From a virus (lineage: Duplodnaviria; Caudoviricetes), in the IMG/VR virus record IMGVR_UViG_3300036713_000599: a DNA stretch of 64,000 nucleotides; one strand, written 5' to 3'. The notes beneath the pieces are model-generated. The model did not search any database. It saw only the letters and a program-made list of their open reading frames with translations, and was not told where the DNA came from. Position 1 is the stretch's first letter; each line of letters begins with the position of its first letter. Position numbers and translations under genes: made by a program. This document shows positions 29,441 through 48,645 of this stretch, one piece after another.

Positions 29441-29533
29441 TTTTTGATGATACTTAGATGAAGATGAAAAATAGATCTAGAGCCCAAATTCGATAATTGC
29501 AGGCACTCTGTGCCCAGACTAAGAGAAGATCAG

Positions 29534-29788
29534 ATGACGAATAGGAACCAAAATCCAGACGAGTTCCGGACAAGTGATCTGTACTTCGCGGCCTATCTTC
29601 AGGTGGCGGGGGCACGGATGATTAAAACAGACCGAAATGATCGTAATAAAGTTACTTTTGTCTTTGACTCCTCAGTGACCAACATTGAGGAGTTGAAGAC
29701 GGCCTGGTTTAATCGGACGGGAAGGGTGGAGGCTTTACCCTTTTCGGATGCGGTGAAAAGTCTTAAGAGCATTTGCCACATGAGCTGA
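29534..29788 (+). CDS. DUF5659-like small protein
   Basis: FRTSDLYFAAYLQVAG...KVTFVF matches the DUF5659 pattern as I recall it. Confidence 0.6.
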   Translation: MTNRNQNPDEFRTSDLYFAAYLQVAGARMIKTDRNDRNKVTFVFDSSVTNIEELKTAWFNRTGRVEALPFSDAVKSLKSICHMS

Positions 29789-30109
29789 GTAAACATTTGC
29801 CACACACCGTGTCTTAGTGTGTGCTAGGTATACGGAGTGTGAGGTTCGTGGTCGAAACAAAGACACGTCTGACTTCTAGTTGTTGGGCAAGCCGTAATAC
29901 TTTTGCAAGAACAACCTCTCCTCTAAATCTTTGGCTTCGGGCTAAAAGAGACAAGTTTGTAGGAGCGGCTCGTGCGAGCCACCCAAGAACCCATTGAGTG
30001 TGTGACCTGGCGCTTGGGCACGCAGAGAACGATTCCGAGTCCTACGGGAGTCTGTCCCAAGAAAGATCGTTAAGGTTCTCTTGATACTTTGTCTTCTTGC
30101 GGAGGCGAA

Positions 30110-32158: not shown

Positions 32159-33049
32159 ATGTCGGTAGCGTTTTATAAAGGTCAGCAACTGGGGTGTGAG
32201 GATCTGAACATCTTCCTAGAGGACACTGCGGGGGTGCCTACGAACGCAGCTGAAATTCACTATGCTTTATACGACTTCACTACGGGACAGGAAGTTCTCT
32301 TGGGTGCTCCCAGAAGGACTCCTTCTAGCTCTTCGGTGGGTGCTTACTACGCGAGTGTGATTGTTCCTCTCGACGCCAATATCGGTAGCTATAGGGTGAG
32401 GTGGACTTTCAGAGAGAAGGTAGGCGGTCCTGTTCATCAGGTAGTGCAGGAATTCGAGGTTATTGACAAAGCTACGAACCTGGTTAGCCAGTTCTCTTCG
32501 TGTGAGGACGATATGATTCGGAGGCTCCGGATTCTCCTTCGAGATAATTCCCCGGATCGAAATTATCATTTCAGGCCCCCCGCTCACGAAACCACCATTG
32601 GGCAGTTCAACCAGGTGTTTGGGTACATCTGGGAAGACGAGGAATTACAGGAATACCTACTTCGGGGTCTGGACATGATTGCCGCAGCACCTCCGAGGAC
32701 CCCCTTCACGAGCTGTGACCAGCTCGTTCGATGTTACCCCGAATGGCGCACTCTTTTACTCAATGGGGCGTCCATGCATGCCCTATTTGCTTTGATGGTG
32801 AACTGGATTTCGGACGAGTTCAGTTATAGTGTGGGCGGAGTTTCTCTGGACATCGAAAAGTCCAGCAAGTACGAATCGGCCTACCAGGCTATGCGGGATC
32901 AGTTCGATACGCAATTAGAGCGAGCCAAGCAAACAGTGAAGACAATTCGCGGCCTTCAGCAGCCTCGCTATGGTGTAGGTATCCGTAGTGCTTTTGGTCC
33001 GTATACCGGCCGGGGTACCCTAAGTCCTCGAAAATTCGTAGGATTCTGA
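32159..33049 (+). CDS. Putative head-tail adaptor (neck protein 1)
   Basis: Helical C-half ending FSYSVGGVSLDIEKSSKYESAYQAMRDQFDTQL, reminiscent of adaptor proteins; position ahead of other neck genes. Confidence 0.55.
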   Translation: MSVAFYKGQQLGCEDLNIFLEDTAGVPTNAAEIHYALYDFTTGQEVLLGAPRRTPSSSSVGAYYASVIVPLDANIGSYRVRWTFREKVGGPVHQVVQEFEVIDKATNLVSQFSSCEDDMIRRLRILLRDNSPDRNYHFRPPAHETTIGQFNQVFGYIWEDEELQEYLLRGLDMIAAAPPRTPFTSCDQLVRCYPEWRTLLLNGASMHALFALMVNWISDEFSYSVGGVSLDIEKSSKYESAYQAMRDQFDTQLERAKQTVKTIRGLQQPRYGVGIRSAFGPYTGRGTLSPRKFVGF

Positions 33050-33092
33050 TATTCCAGACTTTCGTGACTTTCTGCTAGCATGGAGATAAAAG

Positions 33093-33374
33093 ATGAAAGA
33101 TGAAAACCAAAACACAGATAAGTCGGTTCCTCAAGAAACGCCCGTTTCCCGAGAGGACCTAGATCAACTCGAACATCTTCAACGAGTTCGCGTCCAACTT
33201 TCACAAGAGGGCGTGGATATAGACTTGAGGAAAGTCGAGATTCTTGCGACGGTTCGTCGGTTGGACCAGCAGAGGGATGAGATATTCCGAAAAATCTTGG
33301 AGGACAGAGGTTTTCCCCAAGGGACAGTGATTGAGATCAATCCAAAGGACGGGTCCTTTAAGGTGTCTTCTTAG
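33093..33374 (+). CDS. Small coiled-coil hypothetical protein
   Basis: GGAG RBS, 93 aa, helical. Confidence 0.55.
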   Translation: MKDENQNTDKSVPQETPVSREDLDQLEHLQRVRVQLSQEGVDIDLRKVEILATVRRLDQQRDEIFRKILEDRGFPQGTVIEINPKDGSFKVSS

Positions 33375-33410
33375 CAACTCTCTTTATGGATCGATCTATG
33401 AGGAGACACT

Positions 33411-34769
33411 ATGCCGTACGCCTCAGATCGTGACAGACGCCCTCATTGGGATGAGATTGAGCAGTCTCCGTGGCCTGCCCCTCCACGGAATATGTTTCTG
33501 ACGAGTGGCTTTGATGCGGGGGTGTTTGACTTGGTGTGGGACGACCCTGCAAGTTTAGCCCTCAACTCTCGTTTTCACATTTGTGGCGTGAACATTTACC
33601 GTTCGTTCGACTCTGAGTTTGGTCCCTATGATCGCGTAACCAACCTCCCTATCGGGGCAATGTATTGGCGGGATCGTACGGATAACGTGCTTGTAGAGAA
33701 CGAGATGGTTGAGGATAATCATTGGATCCTCAGGGGAGTCCAGACAGCCGGTTCTAATCAGGTACGGTATGTGTTGTGCACACAGCGTCGCCCTATCGTT
33801 AAGTCGGGCTCCCAGGCAATTCCTGCTGATGCGCCTACGGATGTTATCGTTACGGTTGACGGGCAGCGAGCGACGGTTCTGAGGGTGGACGGTCCTTCAG
33901 GTGAAATTGAGTTGGATCCTGCTTGGTACCCCAATGTTGACACACAGACGCTTGAGCCAGCGATTGTGCCTGGGGACAGCTCTGAGACTCGCGTCACGTA
34001 TCTGTACAATCGACGTCTACTGAGGACTGATTTAGACCAACGAATCTTCTACCGTATCACCACAGTAGGTGTTCCAACTACCAAGCCTATCGAAATAGCC
34101 CAACCTCAAGATCTTAGGGAGACCCCTCTAGAGTGGGCGGCGTTTACGTCAAACAAGGAAATCGAGAAGATTGACTATATTTGGCGTGAGGCCGTTCGCC
34201 GTAACGCTTGGATCCTCCGTCAGGGTGGAGAACGCGTCCAAGTCTTCATGCGGAAGAGGAACGGCCTTCCTTGCGAGTGTACAGAGAGGCCTAGACATAA
34301 GCAGCCTCAGAATGATTGCAGAAAATGTTACGGTGTCGGTTTTGTTGGCGGCTACGAAGGCCCCTTCCCCCTCATAATCTCTCCTGATGATGCTGAGCGT
34401 CGGATTGCTCAGCGGGACATTGGTCGCACGGTTGAGCACGTCTACGAGGTTTGGACGGGACCGAGCCCTCTTCTTAGCCAAAGAGACTTCCTGGTGAAGA
34501 TCAACGGAGAGAGGTACAGCATTGGGGCCGTGAGGATGCCGACCAATAGGGGAATGGTGCTTCAGCAGCATTTCAATATCGGCCACATTGACGAGTGTGA
34601 TGTGCGCTACCATGTGCCGATGGATAGCCCCACTGGTCATGTTGTGACCCAGTTGACCCCCTCCGCCCCACCAGGAGGCGAGCCTGCTCAGGTGACGGAT
34701 AAGCCTAATATCCCTAATGAGAGACAACTTCGCGGTCGCACAAAAACATGGGAGAATATTTCGTACTAA
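33411..34769 (+). CDS. Putative head-closure / neck protein with FnIII-like N-terminus and Cys cluster
   Basis: GAGGAG RBS; PAPPRNMFL..DLVWDDP (FnIII-like); CEC...CRKCYGVGFVGGY; DFLVKINGERYSI barrel motif typical of head-closure proteins. Confidence 0.55.
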   Translation: MPYASDRDRRPHWDEIEQSPWPAPPRNMFLTSGFDAGVFDLVWDDPASLALNSRFHICGVNIYRSFDSEFGPYDRVTNLPIGAMYWRDRTDNVLVENEMVEDNHWILRGVQTAGSNQVRYVLCTQRRPIVKSGSQAIPADAPTDVIVTVDGQRATVLRVDGPSGEIELDPAWYPNVDTQTLEPAIVPGDSSETRVTYLYNRRLLRTDLDQRIFYRITTVGVPTTKPIEIAQPQDLRETPLEWAAFTSNKEIEKIDYIWREAVRRNAWILRQGGERVQVFMRKRNGLPCECTERPRHKQPQNDCRKCYGVGFVGGYEGPFPLIISPDDAERRIAQRDIGRTVEHVYEVWTGPSPLLSQRDFLVKINGERYSIGAVRMPTNRGMVLQQHFNIGHIDECDVRYHVPMDSPTGHVVTQLTPSAPPGGEPAQVTDKPNIPNERQLRGRTKTWENISY

Positions 34770-35272
34770 TGCCTCCCAAGACTTTTGTAGCTCGCATTAA
34801 TTATAAGCCCCTTGCCTTGGACGAGGTTGAGAGACTCAAGCCTGAGCGGGTCTTGAAGTATATTCAAAGGGAGGTGCTTAGGGCTATCAGGTCGAGAATC
34901 CAGGTAGCGGCCTTTTCAGCGGAGGCGAAAAAAGCTCTGAGCCAAGGCATGCGGACGAAAATCGGTCCGAGAAGTTTGACAATTGAAGCCACTCATCCAG
35001 CTTTTTTCCCTCTTATTAGGGGTCAGGCTCGTGGGCAGATGACGTGGTTGAGAGGTGCGCGGGCTCCAATCCCTATTGTCCGAGATGACGGTAAAGTAAT
35101 CTTTCGGACTGCAACTGCGAAGTCGATGAAGGACGGGAAATGGATTCATCCGGGGCACAAGTCGACAACGATTATCGAGGAGGCCCGGAAAGAGGCTCGC
35201 GAGATTGTCAAGAAACGCATGAAGAAAGAGATTCAGCGGCAGATCAGAGCAGCTATAGGAAAATCTAGATGA
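34769..35272 (+). CDS. Putative neck / tail-completion protein (basic)
   Basis: Basic ~167-aa protein with WIHPG..TTIIEEA, similar in style to HK97 gp10-like proteins; assignment mostly by position. Confidence 0.45.
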   Translation: MPPKTFVARINYKPLALDEVERLKPERVLKYIQREVLRAIRSRIQVAAFSAEAKKALSQGMRTKIGPRSLTIEATHPAFFPLIRGQARGQMTWLRGARAPIPIVRDDGKVIFRTATAKSMKDGKWIHPGHKSTTIIEEARKEAREIVKKRMKKEIQRQIRAAIGKSR

Positions 35273-35910
35273 GTAATAAGCAAGGTTCTTACACGGTTGT
35301 GGGTATGGTGACAGGCACCCACTTGGTCGAAGACATCAACGTCACGGTCCCTCATCAGGTCGCAGTGGATATTTCGGCAGACGATGCGCACCGCTCACGT
35401 GATTTATGGATTGGGATCGACCAGAAGCGCCTGTTTTTGTTGAAGGGCCATTCCCGGACTGCTAGAGCGGTACCGCAAACCCCAGCCCCTTCGTTGCCTA
35501 CAGGCACCAAGGAGAGTGACAACCTCAGGGTTGAATTAGATACAACTAGGAAGGAATTGGCCGTTGTCCAGAAGAAGTTGGATACTGCCCTATCCGAACT
35601 TGCGGTGGCTCAAGACCGAAACACTTCTCTTCAGGAAACCCGTGCGTCTCTTCAAGAGGACCACGCAAAGAAGCTAGAGACTATTGTGACAATGTTGTCC
35701 AGGTTGGAGACGGGCCAGGTGAACGTGGTTGAGGGTGTTCAAGAGGCCCTGCAGGCAGTGGAAGCACCGGTTTTCATTCCTGGGAAGATTCAGCCGGTGG
35801 GGGCTGAGGCGAACATTCAGCCCAAGGAAGGCGACGTTCTTAAAAAATCTTCGGTCAAGGGTGCTGCCTCCACTCTTCGGGCTCTGCGCAAAGGTAAAGG
35901 TAAGAAGTAA
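35269..35910 (+). CDS. Protein with small N-terminal domain, central coiled coil and basic tail
   Basis: LRVELDTTRKELAVVQKKLDTALSELAVAQDRNTSLQE heptads; ends LRALRKGKGKK. Confidence 0.6.
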   Translation: MSNKQGSYTVVGMVTGTHLVEDINVTVPHQVAVDISADDAHRSRDLWIGIDQKRLFLLKGHSRTARAVPQTPAPSLPTGTKESDNLRVELDTTRKELAVVQKKLDTALSELAVAQDRNTSLQETRASLQEDHAKKLETIVTMLSRLETGQVNVVEGVQEALQAVEAPVFIPGKIQPVGAEANIQPKEGDVLKKSSVKGAASTLRALRKGKGKK

Positions 35911-35933
35911 TCCATTGATTCAAGAGGCGTGTT

Positions 35934-36548
35934 ATGAGTAAAGACTCGGTCTGGCGTGACCCAATGTACTACAACCCTATGCGGGACGGGCCTCCTTACC
36001 TCCCGGTCACGGAGTCTCAGAGACACGAGATTCGTGAGTATATCAACAAGAGTGCTGCTTACTATGACGTCCCGAAGCCGAAAAGTCCGTATGATGTTCT
36101 ATCGAAGCTTCTGGTTGGTCTTAGATTCACTGCTATGGTCCACCAAACAGCGCATTGGCAAGCGAAAGGAAATTCCTTCTACGGAGACCATTTGTTATTC
36201 CAACGCCTATATGAAGAGAGCCAAGAGGGAATCGACGGCGTTGCAGAAAGACTGATTGGTTTGACAGGTGACGTTTCTAAGGTCTCCTTGTGTGACCAAA
36301 TTCGTGACATGCACACTATCGCCAAGGTGTGGCATGGGCACTGTGGGGACGACCTGGCTGCCGTTTCCTTGAGAGGCGAGATGGCATTGATCAAACTCAT
36401 CGCTTTTTTCAAAAAGTCTCTTCAAGACGAAGGGTCTTTGACGGAAGGGCTTGACGACCTTTTACAGGGGATCGCTAGCAAGCACGAAGAGTTCGTTTAC
36501 TTGTTGAAGCAGCGCAGCAGCAGGCCAGTCTACAACTATGGTCGGTAG
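35934..36548 (+). CDS. Dps/ferritin-like four-helix-bundle protein
   Basis: AHWQAKGNSFYGDHLLFQRLYEE..EGIDGVAERL matches the Dps HW..G..F...H..F..LY......D..AER signature; closing helix KHEEFVYLL. Confidence 0.8.
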   Translation: MSKDSVWRDPMYYNPMRDGPPYLPVTESQRHEIREYINKSAAYYDVPKPKSPYDVLSKLLVGLRFTAMVHQTAHWQAKGNSFYGDHLLFQRLYEESQEGIDGVAERLIGLTGDVSKVSLCDQIRDMHTIAKVWHGHCGDDLAAVSLRGEMALIKLIAFFKKSLQDEGSLTEGLDDLLQGIASKHEEFVYLLKQRSSRPVYNYGR

Positions 36549-36595
36549 AGTCCGTAGTTAGACTCAGACCCAGATTCAAATTAGACGAGGATGAG

Positions 36596-37636
36596 ATGAG
36601 TAGCAAGAAAAAAGAGCCTGAGCAGGCTTATAGGCCTGGCGTCGGTCTTGATATCGGCACCATGAACATCGTATCCGCTCGTCGGGAGACGGGCGACGAG
36701 ACGCGTGTTAAGAGGGTCCGGGACGCGTTTCTCGATCTTGACATGACCGCTAAGCGCAGTCTCAAGATGAGTCGTGTGGACTACATCGAGAAGGATGACC
36801 GGCTTATCGTCATCGGAGACAGCGTCCTGACAATGGCGAACCTTTTTAAGCGGGAGGCCCGTCGCCCTTTAAGCAAAGGCGTTATTTCGGCGGGTGAGAT
36901 CGACGCTCAAGAAATTCTCAGCATTCTCACACATTTCGTCCTGGAAGATCCTGTGCAACCAGGGGAACATTGTTTTTACTCGGTCCCCTCTTCTCCGATC
37001 AACGACCAGAGTCAGGACATTCTTTACCATACGGAGGTTTTCCGACGTATTGTGGAGGAGCATGGCTACACGGCCCACCCGACGAATGAAGCTATGGCAA
37101 TCATCTACAGTCAGGCAGCTGAGGATATGTTTAGTGGGCTGGCTGTGAGCTTCGGTGCGGGTATGTGCAACGTCGCTTTGAGTTACCAAGCAACACAAGC
37201 CATGGATTTCTCGGTGAGCGACGGCGGGGGTGGGGATTGGATAGACGCTCAATCCGCTCGGGCTGTGGGTAGAACAGCTGCCCAGATGTGCGCTATTAAG
37301 GAGAAGGGCTTGGATCTATCTAAGCCGAAGAATCGTGAGCAGGAAGCCATTGTCTTGTACACGAAAGCCCTCATCGACCATTGTTTGAAGAATATTGCAG
37401 CCCAGTTCGAGAAGAGGCGTGGAGAGGTCGAGCTGTTGGAGCCCATTCCCTTCATCGTTTCGGGGGGTACCTCCAAGGCACACGGGTTTATGGATGTGTT
37501 CAAGCAGCAGTTTGCCAAGATTCAGAAAGCGGGCTTCCCAATCGACATTTCGGATGTTCGACCGGCGGTCAATCCTCTAACGGCTGTCGCAGAAGGACTT
37601 CTCGTGTTAGCCTCCGAGGAGCACGAGGAAGAATAA
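36596..37636 (+). CDS. Actin-like ATPase (MreB/MamK/ParM superfamily)
   Basis: Phosphate-1 GLDIGTMNI, RRPLSKGVI (cf. MreB RPL..GVI), connect-1 TNEAMA, phosphate-2 SFGAGMCNV, adenosine IVSGGTS, connect-2 PLTAVAEG; GAGGA RBS. Confidence 0.85.
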   Translation: MSSKKKEPEQAYRPGVGLDIGTMNIVSARRETGDETRVKRVRDAFLDLDMTAKRSLKMSRVDYIEKDDRLIVIGDSVLTMANLFKREARRPLSKGVISAGEIDAQEILSILTHFVLEDPVQPGEHCFYSVPSSPINDQSQDILYHTEVFRRIVEEHGYTAHPTNEAMAIIYSQAAEDMFSGLAVSFGAGMCNVALSYQATQAMDFSVSDGGGGDWIDAQSARAVGRTAAQMCAIKEKGLDLSKPKNREQEAIVLYTKALIDHCLKNIAAQFEKRRGEVELLEPIPFIVSGGTSKAHGFMDVFKQQFAKIQKAGFPIDISDVRPAVNPLTAVAEGLLVLASEEHEEE

Positions 37637-37637
37637 C

Positions 37638-38810
37638 GTGTTTTATTATCTGATCGGGGCCCTCAAAAATCGCCTCATTTTGGAGCTACAGGATAGTTTT
37701 AGTAAACATCCTGTTTTCCGTAAGATAAGTCCTTACATACAGAATAAGTTTTCGTTTGAAAAACGGCCTCAGTTTGGGATCGTGGTCAAAGGGTCCAATG
37801 CCAACAAGATTCAACTGTCGGCGGACAATTACGTGGGCACTATCAGCAGCCATGTCATGTTGGCGTACGTAGGGGCCCCTGTACACCCTCTGGAGTGGGT
37901 CCGTGAGGATCTTAGAGCTGTTCAAGAGAACGGTATGCAGACACTCCCTGGCGTGTACTTTGTCGAGATCTTGTCGGCTCCTACGAATGCGGGTGAGTTG
38001 GGCTACTTTGCGATTGATCCTTTACTCACTCAGTCGGACGAAGCTGTTCTACAATTTCAGAGTGGTGTTGAGAGGGAGGCACAGCTCCAGCAAATACCTG
38101 TTCGGGAGACGCTCCGTTTGTGGCTTGATCGGAAGTTTCCTCTCATAGAGGGTCGTGACTACTCCGTGGATTATGGCAGTGGGGCCATTGCCTTTTTAGG
38201 TACCTTTGCGGCTAATTCGGTCGTGACGGCGGATTATAGGTACGCGGCTAGTTCGATCGGCCCTGTGCCTTACAGGTGGAACTCAGCGGATCATACAACC
38301 CTTCCGGGGGTTGTGATGGCTTTCGGGAAGCGGTCTGAGGCGGGCCAGAAGGTGGCTGTGGTTGTTTACGGTGACCGCGTTAGTGTAGCCCAGGCATATG
38401 GCGGTAAGTTTGAGGCGAGCTTCGATCTAGATGTCATAGCTCGCGACTCTTACCAGATGGAAGAGATCGCGGACCTGCTCATCATGTACCTTTGGGGTGA
38501 AAAACGGTCCAAGTTGGCCTTTGAGGGTATCGAGATAGTGGATGTCTCTATGGGTGGTGAGTCGGAGGAGATCTATGACGAGACCGCGGACGACTCGTAT
38601 TACCAGGCATCTATGTCTGTGCAATTACAGGCGGACTGGGAGATCCATATCCCGATACCATTGACTCTGTCTAGAGTTACGCCTGTGACTGCTGAGGGCG
38701 ACGAGGACCCGACAGCCCTTTCTGGGATCCATCAGGTGGTGGATGACTTGTTTTTTGCGACACATGCTGTTTTGATTGACCGAAACAGTGACTACGAAAA
38801 GATTACCTAG
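37638..38810 (+). CDS. Putative tail terminator / sheath stabiliser
   Basis: FEASFDLDVIARDSYQMEEIADLLIMYL...YQASMSVQLQADW fits the terminator fold; lies just upstream of the sheath. Confidence 0.55.
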   Translation: MFYYLIGALKNRLILELQDSFSKHPVFRKISPYIQNKFSFEKRPQFGIVVKGSNANKIQLSADNYVGTISSHVMLAYVGAPVHPLEWVREDLRAVQENGMQTLPGVYFVEILSAPTNAGELGYFAIDPLLTQSDEAVLQFQSGVEREAQLQQIPVRETLRLWLDRKFPLIEGRDYSVDYGSGAIAFLGTFAANSVVTADYRYAASSIGPVPYRWNSADHTTLPGVVMAFGKRSEAGQKVAVVVYGDRVSVAQAYGGKFEASFDLDVIARDSYQMEEIADLLIMYLWGEKRSKLAFEGIEIVDVSMGGESEEIYDETADDSYYQASMSVQLQADWEIHIPIPLTLSRVTPVTAEGDEDPTALSGIHQVVDDLFFATHAVLIDRNSDYEKIT

Positions 38811-38835
38811 ATTTGGATGAAGATAAGGATAAGCG

Positions 38836-39249
38836 ATGCCCCAATACACTTTCGACTGTAGGTGTGGTTTACAGTTTACTCGCACTCTCAAGGCAGAGAA
38901 TCACGAATCCTGTGTCTGTCCTGACTGTGGTGAGGACGCCCCTCGCCAGTTAATTGGGCAAAGTTTTGGTTTCGGCTTCTCTCCAGGAAGTACTCCCGGC
39001 AATAGTGGGGTCACGAAACATGACTCCCCTACGGCTGATCAGGTGGTAGGACGCTCGGCCGAAGTCAGGTGGAGGGAATACGAGGAACGAGAGACGGTCA
39101 AAGACAAAGTCCGTGAAATTGGAGGTACCCGAGCTCTCCGCCGTAGAACTTACAGGGATGCTATTGAGTACGAGGAAGGTGGGGATGCTATTGAGAGACG
39201 AAAGAAAATTGTGAACAGAATACGTCAGTTTGAGCGGTCAGATGACTGA
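38836..39249 (+). CDS. FmdB-family zinc-ribbon protein
   Basis: MPQYTFDCRCGLQF...CVCPDCG. Confidence 0.75.
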   Translation: MPQYTFDCRCGLQFTRTLKAENHESCVCPDCGEDAPRQLIGQSFGFGFSPGSTPGNSGVTKHDSPTADQVVGRSAEVRWREYEERETVKDKVREIGGTRALRRRTYRDAIEYEEGGDAIERRKKIVNRIRQFERSDD

Positions 39250-39375
39250 TGTGTTGATAATGCTTTCGTTCGCAGGGTGAGGGTAGAGGCTGAGCCTCAA
39301 GATAAAAAACCAGACCCAAATCCAAAGCCCTATAACCAAATCTAAAAAGAAGAACACTTCGTGAAGGAGGCCACC

Positions 39376-42300
39376 GTGGCTCTTGGACCGTTCACCACAT
39401 ACGTTCCCCCTGGGGTTTATACCCGCACCCTTACTGAAGCCAATGCTGCCAACTTGGTTGCAGGGCTAAGGATTCCTGTCATCATTGGCGTGGGCCAGGA
39501 AGAGCTGGAGCAACCGGACCTAGAGTTAGTTCGGGGCTCCTCTGCGACCTTGGATCAACAGATCGTCAGTGAGGATGTTTCACAGCGATTTGTGGTCGAT
39601 GAGACGAACCCTAGTAGTCCGGTTCTCGGAGCGGTTGACGGTACCGTTTCCAAGTTCCGTGTACGCAACTTTCCCGTTGTCACCGGTGAGGGGCTCGGAC
39701 GCGCAGCCAACAGCCCTCGTCACGTTAGCGTGACCGTGGACGGCAATCAAGTGGCCGTCGGGAGCGTCCAAGGTACTGACGGGTATGTTACCCTTCAGGT
39801 CCCTCCCCAAGCAGGCGCGGATGTCCGCTGTACGTACTTTTTCCACCGAAGTGACACTGCTTTCATCGACGATGTTTCTAGCCAGGTAACGACGGAACAG
39901 GCTGTTCTGACTGCTCCAGCTACGGCTACGTACACTGTCACTCTTGGCACTACAGATTCCTTCAAGTTTACCATTGATGGTGGCTTTGAGACGACAATTG
40001 TTTTTACGGCAGGATCCTACACCGCTGCAGGCATCAAGGCTCTTGTTGACGCTGCAAGCGTCACTGGCTTGTCTACGTCTGTCTACACGGATGAACGGGG
40101 CGGAGAACATGTCCGGTTTACCGCGGCACAGAGTATCGTTATTGGGGACGGCGGCGCTAACGGGGTCCTAGGTTTTGCGGCAGGAACGCAGACGACCCGT
40201 AACGCCGCGTTCCGGGTCTTCCAGCGTCCGATTGTGGACGGCACAGACGGAGGCATCACCACTACGGACACGTCCAAGGTTGTGGTCCTCGTCAATGGTT
40301 CTCAGGTTATTCCTGCAGAAGTGGACGGAACCAACGGACTCGTTACCCTTTCTCAGCCGCCTGCAAGTGGGTCCACGGTGTCGATCCAATACTGGGCGAA
40401 CACCTGGCAGGACACGTTTGACTACTTGCCAAATACGCTGGTTACCGATGTGATCCGGTGCGGCTTCTCAGCGGGCCGTAACGATTACATCGAGGAGCAG
40501 GACTTTGTTATCTCGAACCCAAGTGCAGATGTTTCGATCATCCATTGGGGTGCGAGCTATGTTGTCGCTTCAACGAGCCGCACAGCAGGGTCCACAGTCT
40601 TTGACGACACTCAGATTATCCCGACACTTGTGGATGATAAGCTGTATAATGCTGAATGTGCTCGGGTGTCCGACACCACAGTAGTTCCTGCAACACAGAG
40701 CCCCAACCAGTTCCTCCTCCCTGAGGTCCCGACTCTGGGTAACGGTCGCGACACCCCTCTGGGCTCGTCTGTGTACAATGCGGTCAGTAATAGCCGTATT
40801 GGCCTAAACACCAATCGACCTGACCTCATTACTGTTTATACCGGTCGTGACCTCCGAGACGCTCTTGGGCGTAACCCTGTGACCGTAACGCAAGTTGACG
40901 CTGTGACCCGCACTATCACTCTGAAGGACGCGGTTCCGCCGGATCACAATGCTTACGCGACCTTCTGGTATTCCCGGCTTTCTGATGACACCTACGTTTT
41001 CACTAATAAGGTGGCTGGTGCTGTCAATGTCGGTCAGTACGAGGTGTATTCTACCTCGACAGCATCAAACCTGTACCACTGCCAGTTTGGGACCAAGACC
41101 GGTCTACCAGAGACGGTGCAGTGGCCACGAGGTGTGGAGAATATCCCTGACGCGTTCCACACAGGTGCTGGCACTCCTGTGGCTGAGATTGTCACAGTCA
41201 CCTTCTCGTCAGAGGGTGCTAAGAATGCTGTGTACACGAATGAGGGTGCGGCTCCGTACAGTATGTTTGCCGGCGCTTCGGACTTCTGGCGTTCAACCCT
41301 CAATGGTTCGTCCTATGTGACAGACCTCGATACTGCTGTTCTAGGGTACCTGGCCGGTAGTCGCGTTTCTGTGAGTGCTCTTGATCAAATCACAATCACC
41401 ACAGGTACGAATGATGAGTTTAATGTCACGGTGGACGGAACGGACACAGACGTCACCCTCCCCGCTGGTGACTTGACTCCTGCTCAGATCGTAAGTGCCG
41501 TCAACATCGCCGCTGGTGGTGCTGTGGCTTCGACAGGAACTCTTACCCTCACGGGTCAGCCTCTCGACACGGAGACTGTTGAGATTGGTGGTAAAACGTA
41601 CACCTTCCAGACGGTTTTAACTGATGTTGACGGAAACGTCTTGATCGGAGCGACTGCAAGTGACTCCCTCGATAACTTGATCGCAGCGATCAACCTCGAT
41701 GCGGGTGCTGGGACTCTGTACGCCACTTCGATGACCCTGCACCCAACTGTTACGGCGGCGGCTGGCGCGGGCGACACGATGGATGTTACCGCGAAGGCGG
41801 CAGGTGTAGCTGGTGACAGCATCACGACCACACAAACTCTCACTAACGGCACTTGGGGTGGAGCAACCCTTTCCGGCGGTGTTGATGGGACTACGGTCGC
41901 AGCCTACTACCAAATTGGTGGCTCAGGCGGTGACGTTTTCTTCGTTCTTCAGAGCGCTTCGACCCCGGCCGCACTTCCGGCCGGCTTCGACCATGCGTCG
42001 GAAGTCTCGATTCGCCAGGGCACGGCGGAATCAACCCTCGGCTTCTCCGCTTTCCAAAGTGCGAGCGGTACTCCGACTGCTACCACAAAGCCTGCAACCC
42101 TTCTCGGTACTGAGGCAGGCCCCTTTGTTATCACAGCTGGTGTGGACGACCAATTGGATATCAGGGTGGACGGTGTTGACTACCAGATTACACTAACAGC
42201 TGGTGCTGCAGTCGCATCCTCCACAATTGTGAGTGATATCAACACAGTGGTTGCAGGTGTAGCTTCTGTCGGCACTTTGGCCAACCTTGACCAGGTTCGT

Positions 42301-43983
42301 CTCACGTCCACAACCTTTGACGCGGGTTCGAGTGTGGAGATTCTTTCTTCCTCCACTGCCCTGACGGTCCTTGGGTTCACCTCAGGTGACAGGGCAAGTT
42401 GGGCCCAAGTGACGGCACAAGAGGTTGTTAATGGCCTCATGGCTACCGCAAGTTTTACCAGTGACGCTGTTGCGTACGTGAGTCAGATCGAAGGTCAGGA
42501 CTACATTACTATTGAGTCTCTGGCTACTGGCGCTACGACGTCCAGCATTGTCTTCGCTGCAGGCACCACAAGTGCCTTCATCGATGGTGCGGGGACTGGT
42601 ATCGTACCTGGGACGAGCGGGGACAACGGTGAGAACGCTCGCGACATCTTTACCGTATCTTCCTCGAATGCAAGCGGTTCAGCAGGTACCGGTGCTCCGG
42701 GGCAGACGTACACAGACGACGTTACGGGCCTTCGGTTCACTGTCTTGGAGTCGGCCACCGGTAGTTATACGGCAACCGGTAGCTTCACCATGACAGTGTC
42801 GCCCACTTTTAAGGTCAATCCAGCCATCCCGTGGCTTTCGATCGGCGGCCTTGAGGTTGTGGTTACTGACACTGTGGGTGTGGGTGTGGACGACACTGCG
42901 ACTGTCCAGACATTCGATCCGAGCGGCCTTGAGCCAGCGATAGGTGATTTCTACTACATTACCTATAACTTCATGAAGCAAGATTATTCGACGAGACTGT
43001 ATCAGCAGTTCAAGACTGTCGAAGCAAACTTCGGCCCTCTTTCGGCTGAGAATAGAGTCACTCTTGCGTCCTACCTGGCGATTCAAAATGGCGCAGTCCT
43101 CGTAGGTATCAAGCAAGTCTTGAAGGTGGCCAACACCAACCAGGCGTCGGCTCAGAGTTTCAATGCTGCCATCTCTGATCTGGCAACACCTCTGCCTGGC
43201 AATATCCGGCCTAATGTCCTACTTCCTCTGTCGACCGACACTTCGGTATATAGCTTCCTGATGCAACACTGCGAAACGCAGTCAAATATCCGGAACCAGT
43301 CAGAGCGTACAGGCATTATCGGATTCGCGTCGGGTACTTCTCCCACTAATGCTCAGACTATCGCCAAGAGCCTGCTAAGCAATCGTATCTCGGCTGTCTA
43401 CCCTGACTCGGCTGTCGTCACCCTGACTAATGAGTTGGGTGAGAACTTCGAGGTCCTGGTGGACGGTACCTTCCTCGCAGCTGCGGTGGGCGGTGCTGTG
43501 GTCAGCCCTGCGGTGGACGTAGCGACGCCCTGGACACGTAGGCTGGTACAGGGCTTCACGAGACTGCCTCGCATTCTTGACCCCATTGCGTCCAACCAAA
43601 CGGCGGTGGCAGGCATCACCCTCTTGGAGGACCTCGATCCGATCATTCGTATTCGACAAGGTCTCACAACCGATATGTCGAACGTCCTGACCCGGTTACC
43701 CACGGTTACGCAAATCGCTGACTACGTGCAGCAGCAGAGCCGTACGGTTCTTGACTCCTTCGTTGGGACCAAGTTCTTAAGCAGCAGGACTAACGAGGTG
43801 GAAGTCTCGATGACTGCATTGTTTAGGCAGCTTGTCCAGGCGGAGATTGTCGGAGCCTTCACGGGAATTGCGGGAGAAGTTAGCGTGGATGATCCAACTG
43901 TGATGAGGGTGGAGTCATACTATCAGCCGATATTCCCCCTTCTCTATATTCTCCTGACTTTCAACTTGAGGGCTAGGATCTAG
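39376..43983 (+). CDS. Contractile tail sheath protein, greatly enlarged (~1535 aa)
   Basis: AGGAGG RBS then GTG 39376; N-terminal YVPPGVYT and C-terminal sheath domain (ERTGIIG, SAVYPDS, FLAAAVGG, RQGLTTD, VESYYQPIFPLLYILLTF). Confidence 0.9.
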   Translation: MALGPFTTYVPPGVYTRTLTEANAANLVAGLRIPVIIGVGQEELEQPDLELVRGSSATLDQQIVSEDVSQRFVVDETNPSSPVLGAVDGTVSKFRVRNFPVVTGEGLGRAANSPRHVSVTVDGNQVAVGSVQGTDGYVTLQVPPQAGADVRCTYFFHRSDTAFIDDVSSQVTTEQAVLTAPATATYTVTLGTTDSFKFTIDGGFETTIVFTAGSYTAAGIKALVDAASVTGLSTSVYTDERGGEHVRFTAAQSIVIGDGGANGVLGFAAGTQTTRNAAFRVFQRPIVDGTDGGITTTDTSKVVVLVNGSQVIPAEVDGTNGLVTLSQPPASGSTVSIQYWANTWQDTFDYLPNTLVTDVIRCGFSAGRNDYIEEQDFVISNPSADVSIIHWGASYVVASTSRTAGSTVFDDTQIIPTLVDDKLYNAECARVSDTTVVPATQSPNQFLLPEVPTLGNGRDTPLGSSVYNAVSNSRIGLNTNRPDLITVYTGRDLRDALGRNPVTVTQVDAVTRTITLKDAVPPDHNAYATFWYSRLSDDTYVFTNKVAGAVNVGQYEVYSTSTASNLYHCQFGTKTGLPETVQWPRGVENIPDAFHTGAGTPVAEIVTVTFSSEGAKNAVYTNEGAAPYSMFAGASDFWRSTLNGSSYVTDLDTAVLGYLAGSRVSVSALDQITITTGTNDEFNVTVDGTDTDVTLPAGDLTPAQIVSAVNIAAGGAVASTGTLTLTGQPLDTETVEIGGKTYTFQTVLTDVDGNVLIGATASDSLDNLIAAINLDAGAGTLYATSMTLHPTVTAAAGAGDTMDVTAKAAGVAGDSITTTQTLTNGTWGGATLSGGVDGTTVAAYYQIGGSGGDVFFVLQSASTPAALPAGFDHASEVSIRQGTAESTLGFSAFQSASGTPTATTKPATLLGTEAGPFVITAGVDDQLDIRVDGVDYQITLTAGAAVASSTIVSDINTVVAGVASVGTLANLDQVRLTSTTFDAGSSVEILSSSTALTVLGFTSGDRASWAQVTAQEVVNGLMATASFTSDAVAYVSQIEGQDYITIESLATGATTSSIVFAAGTTSAFIDGAGTGIVPGTSGDNGENARDIFTVSSSNASGSAGTGAPGQTYTDDVTGLRFTVLESATGSYTATGSFTMTVSPTFKVNPAIPWLSIGGLEVVVTDTVGVGVDDTATVQTFDPSGLEPAIGDFYYITYNFMKQDYSTRLYQQFKTVEANFGPLSAENRVTLASYLAIQNGAVLVGIKQVLKVANTNQASAQSFNAAISDLATPLPGNIRPNVLLPLSTDTSVYSFLMQHCETQSNIRNQSERTGIIGFASGTSPTNAQTIAKSLLSNRISAVYPDSAVVTLTNELGENFEVLVDGTFLAAAVGGAVVSPAVDVATPWTRRLVQGFTRLPRILDPIASNQTAVAGITLLEDLDPIIRIRQGLTTDMSNVLTRLPTVTQIADYVQQQSRTVLDSFVGTKFLSSRTNEVEVSMTALFRQLVQAEIVGAFTGIAGEVSVDDPTVMRVESYYQPIFPLLYILLTFNLRARI
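41533..41880 (+). repeat. Dispersed 348-bp repeat, copy B (inside the sheath gene)
   Basis: Colinear copy of 11241-11588; see copy A. Confidence 0.95.
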
Positions 43984-45135: not shown

Positions 45136-48100
45136 ATGGATGCAATGCAAGAACTCCTAAAGGTTGTTGAGGATTTCAAGCGGCACATTGGCGGTGCGGC
45201 GGAGGACGGTAAGGCTGAGCCTCTGGAAGCCTACCTGGCGTCGGAGTATCTGATCTTCGTCCAAGCCTTCGATGTGTACTCACGGCACCTAGAGGACACC
45301 ATTCGGTTCAAGATCGAGACGTTGGTAGCTCGTCGGGAGGCTTTGACCGATCCTGCTGTGATTGCGGACATTGACAGGCAACTCACCCAGCTTGAGGCCC
45401 ACCAGGAGAATCCTGTGGATAAGGTTGTCCAGGCGGGTGTTCGGCTAATGAAGCGTCTTGACTCAGAGATGGCTGAATTTACCAATTTCATGCGTGAGAA
45501 TTTACCTGAGCAATTCCATAATAAGTTGGATCGGACGATGCGTAAGCCGGCCCGTGACCCACAGGGCGTGGCCTTGCGTGCACGTGGCCTTCGCGGTGTA
45601 GTGATGCGTGGCGGGCCTAAGACTCTCAAGGGCCTTTTTGGCAGTAAGATCAAGCTTCGTAACCAGAACCAGGAAGCTCTTGCCGCTGTCCAGATGGATG
45701 ATGGTGATGAAGCTCTCAAGAAACTCGCCGCTATCCCTGTGAAACACGCCCTCATTCGCAAGTGGATCAGTTGGGCGGATGAGACAGCAAAGCCTTTAAA
45801 AGCAGAAGAGTTTTTTCCTGAATTTGTGTCACCTACGGAGATAGGTGCATCTGAGGTGTCGGATAGGGCTACGACTCTCGTGTCCCAACAGTCGAGACAG
45901 CTTGGTGCTACGGATCCGGAGGAGGTCCAAGAAGCCAAGGTGGCTAGGGATGAGACGATCGTGGCGGTGGAGCAAGAGGCCACTGCTAAGGCTCAGGAGG
46001 CCCTGGAAAAGGCTGGAGAGCCAGACGAACCCCCTAAGAAGTCCGAGGTGGTTGGAATCGCGACAGCGGCAGCCCTCACGGCCATAACGGATCTGTCCAA
46101 CCCACAGAACGTTCCCAATACTCTCAAGGGACTCGACGACGAGCAAAGGGCGGCAGCCCTCACGGACGGTAAGGTGCTCGTCGCTGCGGCAGCCGGTTCT
46201 GGTAAGACTCGGACGGCTGTTGCACGTATTTCTCATCTTGTGTTGGATAGAGGTGTTCCACCTACAAAAATTCTGGCCGCCACTTTCAACAAGAAGGCGG
46301 GGAAGGAACTTTCTCAGCGTCTTGTTCCTACATTGGGTCAAGATGTCGTCAAACAGATGGAGGCGGCGGGTAAGTTAGGCACACTTCATTCCACCTTCCG
46401 TCGAGTTATCAAAGAGCACGGTAACTTTGACGAGCAGATGGCTATCTCGAAGGCAGCCTTTCAGGGAGGCGGAGACAAGATTGGTCGGTGGGTCAACAAG
46501 GTGTGGGGAGCGTGCTACGGTCCTGAAAATATCCCTAAGCTTTCGGACATGATGCGATACAAGACTCAGTGGGCGGGCAACGATATCTCCCCTGAACAAG
46601 CTTTGGCCGAGGCTGAGAACAAGGAAGAGTCTCAGGCTGCTCTATGGTACGGATGGTACGAGAACTTCAAAAAGGCCAACCCTGGTGAGTGGGCCCCTCC
46701 TTGTGAGGGGAAACAACAGGAAGCCAATCAGCAGGAGGCTCGTGAGAGACGCCAAAGGCGTCGTCGTCCTACCCAATGGGAGACATTCCTTAACAACGTC
46801 CGGACCGTGCAATACAAGGGTCGGCCTAAGACAGTTCGTGTTGGGGACTTTGACGACATGCTTTCGATGGCTCGGGACATCCTTCGTCGGAACCCCGAAG
46901 CGAGAAAGCAGATTCAATCGGGGCTTGACCATGTAATTGTTGATGAGGGCCAAGACCAAAATACTGTTCAGCACGAAGTCATTGGTTACATGACGGAGCA
47001 TGTGGCTAGTGATGGTAGCGACGGTCGGTCCTTGTGGGTTGTAGGCGATGAATCGCAGTCGATTTATTCGTTCCGAGGGGCACGTCCTGACCAATTTGTA
47101 GGGCTTCACGAGAACGAAGAATTCACAACTCGGGCGATCAAAACCAACTACCGATGTGAGCCTGAAATCGTTGGGGCTGCGAACAAACTCATCGAGAACA
47201 ATGAGGACCGGCTCCCGATAGCTGCGAACGCTAACCCTGCGAGGCAGGCGGGCAACGCATCCATTAAGGTTTCGACTCCGGAGGACGAAGCGTCCGCCGC
47301 CATCTCCGTGATTGACAGGGTCAAGTCCCTCGTGGATCGTCCTGATGGTGATGAGTTCAACGACCACGCGGTTTTGACCCGCACCAATGCTGAGCTGAAT
47401 GCCTATGAAACGGCCTGTATTATAGGCAATGTGCCTTACCAGCGGAAGGGCGGGGGAGGATTCTTAGAATCCCCTGAGACGAAGGCTGTTTTAGGTTACG
47501 TCGATTTGGTCATGGGCAGTGATCATGAGAAGATGCAGGAGTCCTTCGCTAGCGTCATTGATCGACCCCAGAGGTTCTTTAGGGGTACCGACGGCCCTGA
47601 ACTGGTCAAGGGTGTGTTCCGTGAGTACGCTCGCCGTATTGGCGAGGATGTAGGTTCGATTAGCCCAATGGTGGCGTTGAACGATTCGACGTTCGTTCGT
47701 ATGTTGTCGGAAGCTCTCTCTAAGAGTTCAAGGGCAGTCGGGCACGGTATCAGTAAGATTGAGGACCTTCGCGACTCTCTCATGGATATGCAGGCACATG
47801 CGGATGAGGGAGGTAGCGTCGAAGATCTCTTCGACGATATCCTTGACCTCAAGGGTCGCGTTCCTGTCGTTGACGAGAAGACGGGACGCTCTCAGTTCAA
47901 AGAGGTGTCTCTTCGGGAAAGCATTCAAGGGTTTACTCGGGACAACACTTCTGAGGATGATGAGGGTGGCGAAGGTGATGCGGACGATAGCATGGTGGGG
48001 CTTGGAAATGTTTCGTTCCTCTTCTTGTTGACTGAGCCTGACCCAACAGATCCGGCTGATATTGCACAGAGCCCTAAAACACCTGCTGGGTTCAAGGCTA

Positions 48101-48645
48101 AGATGGCTCGATACGAGGAGCGTGCGAAGAGTCTTCGTGTGCCTACAGAGGAGGAGCGTGCTGCTGCTCTCAAGCAAGGCAAGGTTCTTCCTGAGGCACC
48201 TACCAATTTCATGTCCCTGAATACGGTACACGCCACGAAGGGGTTGGAATGGAAGAACGTATATGTTTCGATGCCGGGCTCTAAGTTTCCCATGCCTCTT
48301 TTTACGAAGGAAAATGAGCCTCCTCCCCCTGTTGAGAAGGAGCAGAAGCAACTTGAGTCCGAGAGGCGTCTTGGTTATGTAGCCATCACGAGGGCTGAGA
48401 AGAATCTTACCATCTTGTGCCCTAAGGTGGTAGGTGGTAGGCCTTCCGGTGTTAGTCGGTTTGTGGAGGAGGCAGGGTTGGAGGTAGGAGAGAACGTCAA
48501 CCCACCTGGTGAGGCAGGCGACGCTGCAGCTGAGGTGGAGAAGTCGACTACTCGAACAGCTTCCGTTGAGTGGTATGATGAGGAAACTGAAGACGACATT
48601 GTGATGACGGCTTCTGAGTGGAGTAAGGACGTGTGCAATGGCTAG
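45136..48645 (+). CDS. UvrD/PcrA/Rep-family SF1 DNA helicase with ~330-aa N-terminal extension
   Basis: All canonical motifs present: AAAGSGKT, TFNKKA, TLHS, DFDDML, VIVDEGQD, VGDESQSIYSFRGA, NYRC, VLTRTN, TVHATKGLEW, ERRLGYVAITRA. Confidence 0.92.
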   Translation: MDAMQELLKVVEDFKRHIGGAAEDGKAEPLEAYLASEYLIFVQAFDVYSRHLEDTIRFKIETLVARREALTDPAVIADIDRQLTQLEAHQENPVDKVVQAGVRLMKRLDSEMAEFTNFMRENLPEQFHNKLDRTMRKPARDPQGVALRARGLRGVVMRGGPKTLKGLFGSKIKLRNQNQEALAAVQMDDGDEALKKLAAIPVKHALIRKWISWADETAKPLKAEEFFPEFVSPTEIGASEVSDRATTLVSQQSRQLGATDPEEVQEAKVARDETIVAVEQEATAKAQEALEKAGEPDEPPKKSEVVGIATAAALTAITDLSNPQNVPNTLKGLDDEQRAAALTDGKVLVAAAAGSGKTRTAVARISHLVLDRGVPPTKILAATFNKKAGKELSQRLVPTLGQDVVKQMEAAGKLGTLHSTFRRVIKEHGNFDEQMAISKAAFQGGGDKIGRWVNKVWGACYGPENIPKLSDMMRYKTQWAGNDISPEQALAEAENKEESQAALWYGWYENFKKANPGEWAPPCEGKQQEANQQEARERRQRRRRPTQWETFLNNVRTVQYKGRPKTVRVGDFDDMLSMARDILRRNPEARKQIQSGLDHVIVDEGQDQNTVQHEVIGYMTEHVASDGSDGRSLWVVGDESQSIYSFRGARPDQFVGLHENEEFTTRAIKTNYRCEPEIVGAANKLIENNEDRLPIAANANPARQAGNASIKVSTPEDEASAAISVIDRVKSLVDRPDGDEFNDHAVLTRTNAELNAYETACIIGNVPYQRKGGGGFLESPETKAVLGYVDLVMGSDHEKMQESFASVIDRPQRFFRGTDGPELVKGVFREYARRIGEDVGSISPMVALNDSTFVRMLSEALSKSSRAVGHGISKIEDLRDSLMDMQAHADEGGSVEDLFDDILDLKGRVPVVDEKTGRSQFKEVSLRESIQGFTRDNTSEDDEGGEGDADDSMVGLGNVSFLFLLTEPDPTDPADIAQSPKTPAGFKAKMARYEERAKSLRVPTEEERAAALKQGKVLPEAPTNFMSLNTVHATKGLEWKNVYVSMPGSKFPMPLFTKENEPPPPVEKEQKQLESERRLGYVAITRAEKNLTILCPKVVGGRPSGVSRFVEEAGLEVGENVNPPGEAGDAAAEVEKSTTRTASVEWYDEETEDDIVMTASEWSKDVCNG

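What the first reader, a model, noticed from the sequence alone, without database searches (positions are those of the whole stretch)
35269..37636. Coiled-coil + Dps-like + MreB/MamK-like actin cassette embedded in the neck operon
Seen: a 346-aa protein with all five actin-fold motifs and an MreB-like RPL..GVI segment; phosphate-2 reads SFGAGM, lacking the usual Asp. It is co-oriented and tightly packed between neck proteins and the tail terminator, behind a coiled-coil gene and a Dps-like gene. Established: the known phage cytoskeletal proteins (PhuZ tubulins of nucleus-forming jumbo phages, the AlpC actin of a corynebacterial prophage) position or segregate DNA or capsids, and ParM-type systems use an adaptor. 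Inference: late-expressed placement among head-tail joining genes suggests a filament (or non-polymerising ATPase) that organises virion assembly or moves capsids, with the coiled-coil protein as adaptor. This is the best candidate for an undescribed system in the window.
Basis: partly seen in the sequence, partly recalled or inferred. Interest (0 to 1): 0.85.

Follow-up and report, generated by a model that had tools for sequence, protein, structure and literature searches.

The report
Volactin-type actin module in huge phage
A giant sediment bacteriophage carries, between its neck and tail-terminator genes, a highly conserved actin-like protein of the archaeal "volactin" family plus a small partner protein, which suggests that these phages build their own actin filaments, something I found in no paper I could search.

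Summary
The three ORFs are real. The 346-aa protein (36596-37636) is an actin-fold protein. It belongs to the volactin family, not to MreB or MamK: Pfam PF25216 scores 231 bits, and the model matches Haloferax VolA at TM 0.89, rmsd 1.7 Å and 37% identity. The "missing Asp" in phosphate-2 (SFGAGM) is a trait of the whole family.

The window is part of a ~0.45 Mb huge phage from sediment. In the 80 best related viral loci of 285, where flank allows:
- tail terminator downstream in 76/78 (fold shown here, Z 9-14)
- coiled-coil gene upstream in 68/69
- Dps-like gene in 65/73, so it is optional.

One phage keeps the trio 174-aa protein, coiled-coil protein and actin away from tail genes, so this trio is the core module. 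Inteins sit at four or more sites in the ATP-binding loops of viral homologs. Five related huge-phage genomes have no tubulin.

The partner's conserved C-terminal helix resembles a motif in the CdpA-like membrane protein encoded next to volactin in haloarchaea. It may be a shared docking peptide, but the statistics are only suggestive.

Best reading: a late-expressed filament-plus-adaptor system. Its cargo is unknown. This scan has already reported the same thing on other DNA (at least 30 genomes).

The parts
33411..34769 (+). 452-aa conserved virion-module protein, probably a neck or head-tail joining protein
   Evidence: Found upstream in 63/64 related loci. Atlas structure leads point to T4 neck protein, Phage_attach and Minor_capsid_1 for residues ~254-395. 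These are leads only; there is no Pfam hit and no PDB sequence hit.
34748..35272 (+). 174-aa very basic protein, the first gene of the conserved trio
   Evidence: Present in 64/68 loci. A 190-aa relative (BLASTP 5e-6) travels with the coiled-coil and actin genes in the non-structural context of L089. No family hit.
35269..35910 (+). 213-aa candidate adaptor: conserved ~55-aa N-terminal domain, variable coiled coil, FIP motif, conserved basic C-terminal helix (..GAAS.LR.LRKG)
   Evidence: Upstream of the actin gene in 68/69 loci. It abuts or overlaps the actin gene where the Dps-like gene is absent. A more distant member (HMM E 1.8e-6) overlaps a 41%-identical actin gene in L253. The C-terminal motif resembles one in the haloarchaeal CdpA-like neighbour of volactin.
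35934..36548 (+). 204-aa Dps-like ferritin-fold protein with a conserved proline-rich N-terminal extension; optional insert in the module
   Evidence: PDB Dlp-1 1ji5 E 1.8e-8. PHROG 3636 E 7e-12. H74, H86, D101 and E105 are invariant. Present in 65/73 loci and absent from the more divergent ones and from LR745208.
36596..37636 (+). 346-aa volactin-family actin
   Evidence: Pfam PF25216 231.5 bits. AF2 pLDDT 95.4. VolA D4GU28 TM 0.89, rmsd 1.7 Å, 37% identity. Identity to relatives is 52-83% in 80 viral loci. One copy in each of 5 huge-phage genomes.
37638..38810 (+). 390-aa tail terminator with an inserted domain (~130-202); starts 1 nt after the actin stop codon
   Evidence: VIA-align: phage 812 neck 8q01_M Z 14.2, T5 p142 Z 11.9, lambda gpU Z 9.9, T4 gp15 Z 9.1, pyocin and CIS caps. 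The model is moderate, pLDDT 70. Downstream of the actin gene in 76/78 loci.
38836..39249 (+). 137-aa zinc-ribbon protein
   Evidence: Pfam Zn_ribbon_8 at 26.3 bits, below its cut-off. Conserved in 75/78 loci.
39361..43983 (+). 1540-aa protein, sheath-like by position only (not verified here)
   Evidence: Conserved downstream in 74/77 loci. Only a weak DUF2460 hit.

Best explanation
The 346-aa gene encodes a volactin-family actin. It binds and hydrolyses ATP and most likely forms dynamic filaments, as Haloferax VolA does.

It belongs to a conserved phage module: a basic 174-aa protein, a coiled-coil adaptor, an optional Dps-like protein, then the actin. In this lineage of huge (~0.35-0.6 Mb) phages the module sits between neck-like genes and the tail terminator. 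It is probably transcribed with them late in infection.

The adaptor is proposed to dock on the actin through its conserved basic C-terminal helix and to bind a phage cargo through its N-terminal domain. This parallels the CdpA-like membrane protein encoded next to volactin in haloarchaea, except that the phage adaptor has no membrane anchor. The filament would then position or move large phage parts (capsids, tails or finished virions) in the infected cell. It may take the place of the PhuZ tubulin, which these phages lack.

Shown here: family membership, fold, conservation and synteny. Inferred: polymerisation, adaptor docking, late timing and the nature of the cargo.
For: Family and fold:
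- PF25216 at 231.5 bits is the only Pfam hit.
- The model has pLDDT 95.4.
- VolA matches at TM 0.89 and 37% identity, against at most 0.70 and 14-17% for salactin, MreB and MamK.
- Haloarchaeal paralogs are ~40% identical.
- VolA forms dynamic filaments in vivo whose tips contact the membrane (PMC10869688).

Constraint on the protein:
- The actin is 64-83% identical across loci where the adaptor is 25-58% and the Dps-like protein 37-69%.
- D19, G21, E165, S185, G187, G189, D214, D217, G290 and G291 are invariant or nearly so.
- Inteins sit at four or more sites in the phosphate-2 loop or just before GGDW(I/V)D, in viral homologs only.

Synteny and coupling: figures as. There is a 1-nt gap to the terminator gene and no promoter- or terminator-like site inside the block.

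Adaptor motif:
- An HMM of the phage adaptor's 20-column C-terminus was searched against 2599 six-frame ORFs of 80 haloarchaeal volactin loci. About its 70 best hits are the gene directly upstream of volactin (best 14.7 bits, E 0.004; best other ORF 7.4 bits).
- That upstream gene is DUF7139, i.e. CdpA-like (PMC12126565).
- A 101-aa single-pass membrane protein upstream of another family member ends in a similar motif; 2 of 2000 shuffles score as high.

No tubulin was found in 5 related genomes, one of them complete at 437 kb.
Against: - No experiment and no RNA data exist for this phage.
- Polymerisation is inferred from 37% identity to VolA.
- The motif similarity is short. The reciprocal search gives at most 8.8 bits and hhalign gives a probability of 2.6%. 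The 80 archaeal loci are orthologs, not independent trials.
- In L089 the trio lies among non-structural genes, so a link to virion assembly is not obligatory.
- A second large viral volactin clade (28% identity) has quite different neighbours.
- Other family members are fused to ParB-HTH or HU domains, which points to DNA-related roles.
Confidence: 0.5

Rival explanations
1. Host take-over. The phage volactin reshapes or enlarges the host cell, or blocks its division, to make room for very large virions. This would be a viral use of volactin's known cell-shape role.
For: VolA is a cell-shape determinant. The family occurs in bacteria as well as archaea, so a host partner could exist. The module can lie outside tail genes.
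Against: The phage adaptor has no membrane segment, unlike the archaeal CdpA-like neighbour. In 76/78 loci the gene is tightly coupled to the terminator gene, which suggests late rather than early expression.
Confidence: 0.17
2. DNA positioning or segregation, of the ParM or AlpC type. The filament moves or anchors phage genomes or replication centres, with the basic 174-aa protein or the Dps-like protein as the DNA-binding element.
For: Family members are fused to ParB-HTH and to HU. A Dps-like protein (PHROG family annotated 'DNA binding protein') and a very basic 174-aa protein sit in the module. VolA dynamics resemble those of ParM.
Against: There is no iterated centromere-like repeat in 33000-39400. 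The Dps-like gene is optional. The module lies in a structural block, not a replication block. No DNA-binding domain was detected in the adaptor.
Confidence: 0.15
3. A non-polymerising ASKHA ATPase that acts as an assembly chaperone for neck or tail joining (Hsp70- or EutJ-like), or a protein packaged into the virion.
For: EutJ appears among the PDB matches. The phosphate-2 loop is unusual. The gene sits between structural genes.
Against: VolA, a proven filament former, is by far the closest match. No Hsp70 Pfam hit. The SFGAGM loop is shared with the archaeal and other members of the family examined here. The module also occurs away from tail genes.
Confidence: 0.12

Closest known systems
Volactin (VolA, HVO_2015, UniProt D4GU28) of Haloferax volcanii with its CdpA-like neighbour HVO_2016; Pfam PF25216
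   Same: Same Pfam family and fold (TM 0.89, 37% identity). Same nucleotide-binding motifs, including SFGAGM and GGDW(I/V)D. A partner gene lies directly upstream, and its tail carries a ..V(D/S)..A..L(R/K).L(R/K).. helix.
   Different: The gene is viral and lies in a neck/tail block. The partner is a soluble coiled-coil protein without the four-TM DUF7139 domain. A Dps-like gene is inserted in most members. Some viral members carry inteins. A cell-shape role is not implied.
PhuZ tubulin spindle of nucleus-forming jumbo phages (Chimalliviridae)
   Same: A phage-encoded cytomotive filament in very large phages, used for intracellular organisation and capsid traffic.
   Different: Tubulin fold rather than actin fold. 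No tubulin was found in 5 genomes of this group. The gene context and the likely timing differ.
AlpC/AlpA of Corynebacterium prophage CGP3 and ParMRC plasmid systems
   Same: An actin-like ATPase paired with a small adaptor encoded next to it on a mobile element.
   Different: No sequence-family membership. No centromere-like repeats. No DNA-binding domain seen in the adaptor. The adaptor gene lies upstream of the actin gene, whereas parR lies downstream of parM (my own knowledge).
MreB / MamK
   Same: The same general bacterial actin fold (TM 0.6-0.7); an RPL..G.I segment.
   Different: 14-17% identity, no PF06723 hit at E<=0.1, and a different phosphate-2 loop.

Membership tests
Volactin (Pfam PF25216) | Scores above the family's gathering threshold over the full length | tested here: met
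   231.5 bits against a cut-off of 35; profile positions 3-321 of 321. The genome search gives the same result.
Volactin (Pfam PF25216) | Fold superposes on VolA better than on other actin families | tested here: met
   D4GU28 TM 0.89, rmsd 1.7 Å over 335 residues, 37% identity. Next best are salactin at 0.70 and Mbl/MreB/MamK at ~0.65.
Volactin (Pfam PF25216) | Family-type nucleotide-binding motifs (DxGT; S-F-G-A-G-M-x-N; GGDW(I/V)D; GGTS) | tested here: met
   All are present in P0003 and invariant or nearly so in 95- and 14-sequence alignments, and in 3 haloarchaeal proteins.
Volactin (Pfam PF25216) | Forms dynamic filaments in vivo | not testable with these tools
   Shown only for VolA (PMC10869688).
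Volactin + CdpA-like pair (haloarchaea) | Adjacent four-TM DUF7139 (CdpA-like) gene | tested here: not met
   The phage's upstream gene has no TM segment and no DUF7139 hit. The archaeal neighbours hit DUF7139 at 124-163 bits.
Volactin + CdpA-like pair (haloarchaea) | Shared tail motif in the upstream partner | tested here: inconclusive
   Forward HMM search: about the 70 best of 2599 ORFs are the neighbour gene, best E 0.004. Reciprocal search: the top 7 hits are phage adaptors, but at no more than 8.8 bits. hhalign probability 2.6%.
MreB/Mbl (PF06723) | Matches the family model | tested here: not met
   No hit at E<=0.1. No PDB sequence hit at E<=0.01. 14-16% identity in structural alignments.
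ParMRC / AlpAC-type segregation system | Centromere-like iterated repeats next to the operon | tested here: not met
   Only two-copy 12-14 nt matches, all inside coding sequence, in 33000-39400.
ParMRC / AlpAC-type segregation system | DNA-binding adaptor | tested here: inconclusive
   No DNA-binding family was detected in P0001 or P0006. Their folds were not predicted.
Dps (ferritin-like) | Ferritin-like domain with the residues I read as His/His/Asp/Glu ferroxidase ligands | tested here: met
   Dlp-1 1ji5 E 1.8e-8. H74, H86, D101 and E105 are invariant. However, Pfam Ferritin scores 20.6 bits, below its 24.5 cut-off.
Tail terminator (gpU / gp15 / p142 type) | Terminator fold | tested here: met
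   Z 9-14 against more than 25 neck or terminator chains, rmsd ~3-4 Å over 120-159 residues for most of them. The model is moderate, pLDDT 70.

The most novel reading that the evidence does not exclude
Huge phages that lack tubulin build an actin (volactin) cytoskeleton late in infection. A soluble coiled-coil adaptor hooks it to phage particles. The adaptor's C-terminal helix would be the same docking peptide that CdpA-like membrane anchors use on volactin in archaea. That would make it a general volactin-binding motif, reused with different targeting domains: four TM segments, one TM segment, or a soluble cargo-binding domain.
Probability: 0.3. Interest if true: 0.85.

Novelty: new variant of a known kind. 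Interest (0 to 1): 0.68.

Why it matters
The phage cytoskeletal proteins I know of, or found in my searches, are tubulins (PhuZ, TubZ) and one prophage actin (AlpC). Here an actin of the recently named volactin family is a core gene that evolves as slowly as the structural genes. It occurs in hundreds of huge-phage contigs (285 loci in IMG/VR for this clade and at least 112 for a second clade).

If it polymerises, these phages organise late infection with actin filaments. The candidate docking peptide gives a direct handle on volactin-binding partners, which the VolA paper lists as unknown. My searches (volactin, phage actin, huge or jumbo phage with actin) found no paper describing viral volactins.

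Tried and rejected
- RNA evidence: no RNA holder was listed for the block or for the gene. The only holders are three sediment DNA runs that may be the source of this DNA.
- Promoters and terminators: sigma-70-like and terminator-like sites are no more frequent than in shuffles, and none lies inside the block. The TAATCC..TTG motif is not enriched.
- PDB sequence searches found nothing for the actin, the terminator or the 452-aa protein.
- Foldseek on the terminator model gave low TM scores. The terminator fold was seen only with VIA-align.
'Relatives' cannot be drawn for a virus record.
- Partner families: hhalign of the clade-1 adaptor family against the 76-aa upstream protein of the second viral clade gave a probability of 0.4%, so no homology is shown.
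- No tubulin in 5 genomes. No centromere-like repeats.
- Literature: 'actin' in the COBRA, Jug-phage and phage G papers refers to actinophages or to reference lists, not to phage actins.
- A phylogeny with named outgroups was not built, because the representative library carries no names.
Full report
**What is there.** The window is bases 104097-168096 of a 240,951-bp IMG/VR virus record, estimated to be 50% complete. All of its long genes lie on the + strand. It carries many tail-fibre-like genes and comes from sediment metagenomes.

The three ORFs of the finding are present as described. From 33411 to 39249 seven genes are packed with gaps of -22, -4, 23, 47, 1 and 25 nt. No promoter-like or terminator-like site lies between them. 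Co-transcription is therefore likely, though it is inferred.

**The actin.** The 346-aa protein hits one Pfam family only: Volactin (PF25216), at 231.5 bits against a cut-off of 35, over the full length. It has no PHROG hit and no sequence match in the PDB.

A 95-sequence alignment gave an AlphaFold model with pLDDT 95.4 and pTM 0.92.
- Against Swiss-Prot models, the best match by far is volactin of Haloferax volcanii: TM 0.89, rmsd 1.7 Å over 335 residues, 37% identity.
- Salactin follows at TM 0.70. Mbl, MreB and MamK follow at about 0.65, all with 14-17% identity.
- Among solved structures the top matches are filament formers (MamK, MreB, FtsA, BeeR, actin). EutJ is the only non-polymer family near the top.

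The label "MreB/MamK-like" should become "volactin family".

The SFGAGM phosphate-2 loop is not a lesion. S185, G187, G189 and N192 are at least 90% conserved across the family, together with GGDW(I/V)D. The haloarchaeal proteins share these motifs. VolA itself forms dynamic filaments whose tips contact the membrane (PMC10869688).

**How widespread and how constrained.**
- There are 1613 cluster representatives at E<=1e-5. The best 120 are at least 63% identical, and many lie on contigs of 300-620 kb.
- 987 clusters at 50% identity match at E<=1e-3.
- Family clusters are labelled viral, bacterial (Acidobacteriota, Thermodesulfobacteriota) and archaeal.
- Five related huge-phage genomes, one of them complete at 437 kb with terminal repeats, each hold exactly one copy and no tubulin.
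- The actin is as conserved as the structural neighbours (64-83% identity). It is much more conserved than the coiled-coil protein (25-58%) or the Dps-like protein (37-69%).
- Viral homologs carry LAGLIDADG or HNH inteins at four or more different sites, all in the phosphate-2 loop or just before GGDW(I/V)D. The intein-bearing Atlas cluster is labelled 100% viral. From general knowledge, inteins tend to sit in the most constrained sites of important proteins, so this fits a working nucleotide site.

**Neighbourhood.** The 390-aa protein that starts 1 nt after the actin stop codon has a tail-terminator fold. It matches the phage 812 neck at Z 14.2, T5 p142 at 11.9, lambda gpU at 9.9 and T4 gp15 at 9.1, on a moderate model with pLDDT 70. 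The 452-aa upstream protein has only weak neck and head-tail leads.

A scan of IMG/VR found 285 loci of this clade. In the best 80 (52-83% identity), counting only loci with enough flank:

| Neighbour | Loci |
|---|---|
| Tail terminator, downstream | 76/78 |
| Zinc-ribbon protein | 75/78 |
| Sheath-like giant protein | 74/77 |
| Coiled-coil protein, upstream | 68/69 |
| 174-aa basic protein | 64/68 |
| 452-aa protein | 63/64 |
| Dps-like protein | 65/73 |

Where the Dps-like gene is missing, the coiled-coil gene abuts or overlaps the actin gene. This also holds for the published 485-kb genome LR745208.

In one 173-kb contig (L089) the trio of 174-aa relative, coiled-coil protein and actin lies among MazG, metallopeptidase and methylase genes, with no tail genes nearby. 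The trio is therefore the core module. The tail-side position is usual but not obligatory.

A second viral clade is 28% identical to this actin and includes LR756511. It has at least 112 loci and a different conserved set of small neighbours.

**The partner.** The coiled-coil family evolves fast but keeps three elements: an N-terminal ~55-residue domain, often an FIP motif, and almost always a basic C-terminal helix of the form ..S-D-A-A-x-x-L-R-x-L-R-K-G...

In haloarchaea the gene directly upstream of volactin encodes a four-TM DUF7139 protein. This is the "CdpA-like" HVO_2016, which the literature notes as adjacent to volactin and as a possible cytoskeleton anchor (PMC12126565). Its cytoplasmic tail holds similar helices, for example ..T-V-D-D-Q-T-A-K-L-R-E-L-R...

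The tests of this resemblance gave the following.
- An HMM of the phage C-terminal 20 columns was searched against all 2599 six-frame ORFs of 80 haloarchaeal volactin loci. It ranked that neighbour first about 70 times (best 14.7 bits, E 0.004; best other ORF 7.4 bits).
- The reciprocal search ranks phage adaptors first (top 7, and 13 of the top 20), but only at up to 8.8 bits. hhalign gives a probability of 2.6%.
- A 231-aa member of the adaptor family overlaps a 41%-identical actin gene in another virus-like contig. A 101-aa single-pass membrane protein upstream of a further family member ends in ..L-D-A-L-K-S-L-K-R-G; 2 of 2000 shuffles score as high.

I read this as a candidate shared docking peptide with about even odds. 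The archaeal loci are orthologs, not independent trials.

**Mechanism and rivals.**
- Most likely (0.5): a late-expressed filament plus a soluble adaptor that positions or moves large phage parts.
- Rival, host shape or division control (0.17).
- Rival, DNA positioning (0.15). ParB-HTH and HU fusions elsewhere in the family support it. The lack of centromere-like repeats argues against it.
- Rival, a non-polymerising assembly chaperone or packaged protein (0.12).

**Novelty.** Searches for volactin, phage-encoded actin and actin in huge, jumbo or mega phages returned no description of viral volactins. This scan has already reported the same module on other DNA: 34 notes in at least 30 genomes. 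I read those notes after my own tests, and they agree with them.

Noticed in passing
homologs P0126, P0129, P0130, P0138, P0142, P0154, P0158 (aligned to window 36596-37636, residues ~185-213): Inteins (LAGLIDADG or HNH type, ~350 aa) interrupt viral volactin genes at four or more distinct sites. All lie within the phosphate-2 loop or just before GGDW(I/V)D. The Atlas cluster of such proteins is labelled 100% viral.
   Followed up: partly
L008 (LR756511.1) and L090-L169: A second large huge-phage clade carries a volactin only 28% identical to this one. It has its own conserved neighbours: a 76-aa protein directly upstream in 77/81 loci, a 194-aa protein in 76/81, and a 76-aa protein downstream in 76/81. 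No homology to the clade-1 adaptor could be shown.
   Followed up: partly
proteins P0159, P0166, P0180, P0131, P0148; Atlas clusters: Some volactin-family proteins are fused to a ParB-type HTH, to HU (Bac_DNA_binding, Acidobacteriota) or to a Wzz-GNVR-ParA-like tyrosine-kinase module. Others are tandem double volactins.
   Followed up: no
L089:2758-4993: The trio of 174-aa relative, coiled-coil protein and volactin sits among MazG, metallopeptidase, GNAT-ATPase and methylase genes, not tail genes. It behaves as a movable module.
   Followed up: partly
window 37638-38810, residues ~130-202: The tail terminator carries an inserted ~70-residue beta domain. The same domain fold occurs in the CBA120 tailspike TSP4 and in several phage baseplate and neck proteins (Z 8-9).
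   Followed up: no
window 33411-34769 and 39361-43983: The profile of the 452-aa neck-like protein also hits the giant sheath-like protein in loci where the neck gene itself is out of range. The two may share a domain.
   Followed up: no
window 45136-48645: A 1169-aa UvrD/PcrA-type helicase with a ~330-aa N-terminal extension lies downstream of the sheath-like gene, inside the tail block.
   Followed up: no
window 29441-30088: A 648-nt stretch without a long ORF in an otherwise wall-to-wall coding window, just upstream of the head and neck genes.
   Followed up: no
window 35934-36100 (Dps-like residues 1-55): The Dps-like protein has a conserved proline-rich N-terminal extension (W7, P10, G19-P20, Y22, P24 invariant). 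It lies ahead of the part that aligns to solved Dps proteins.
   Followed up: no
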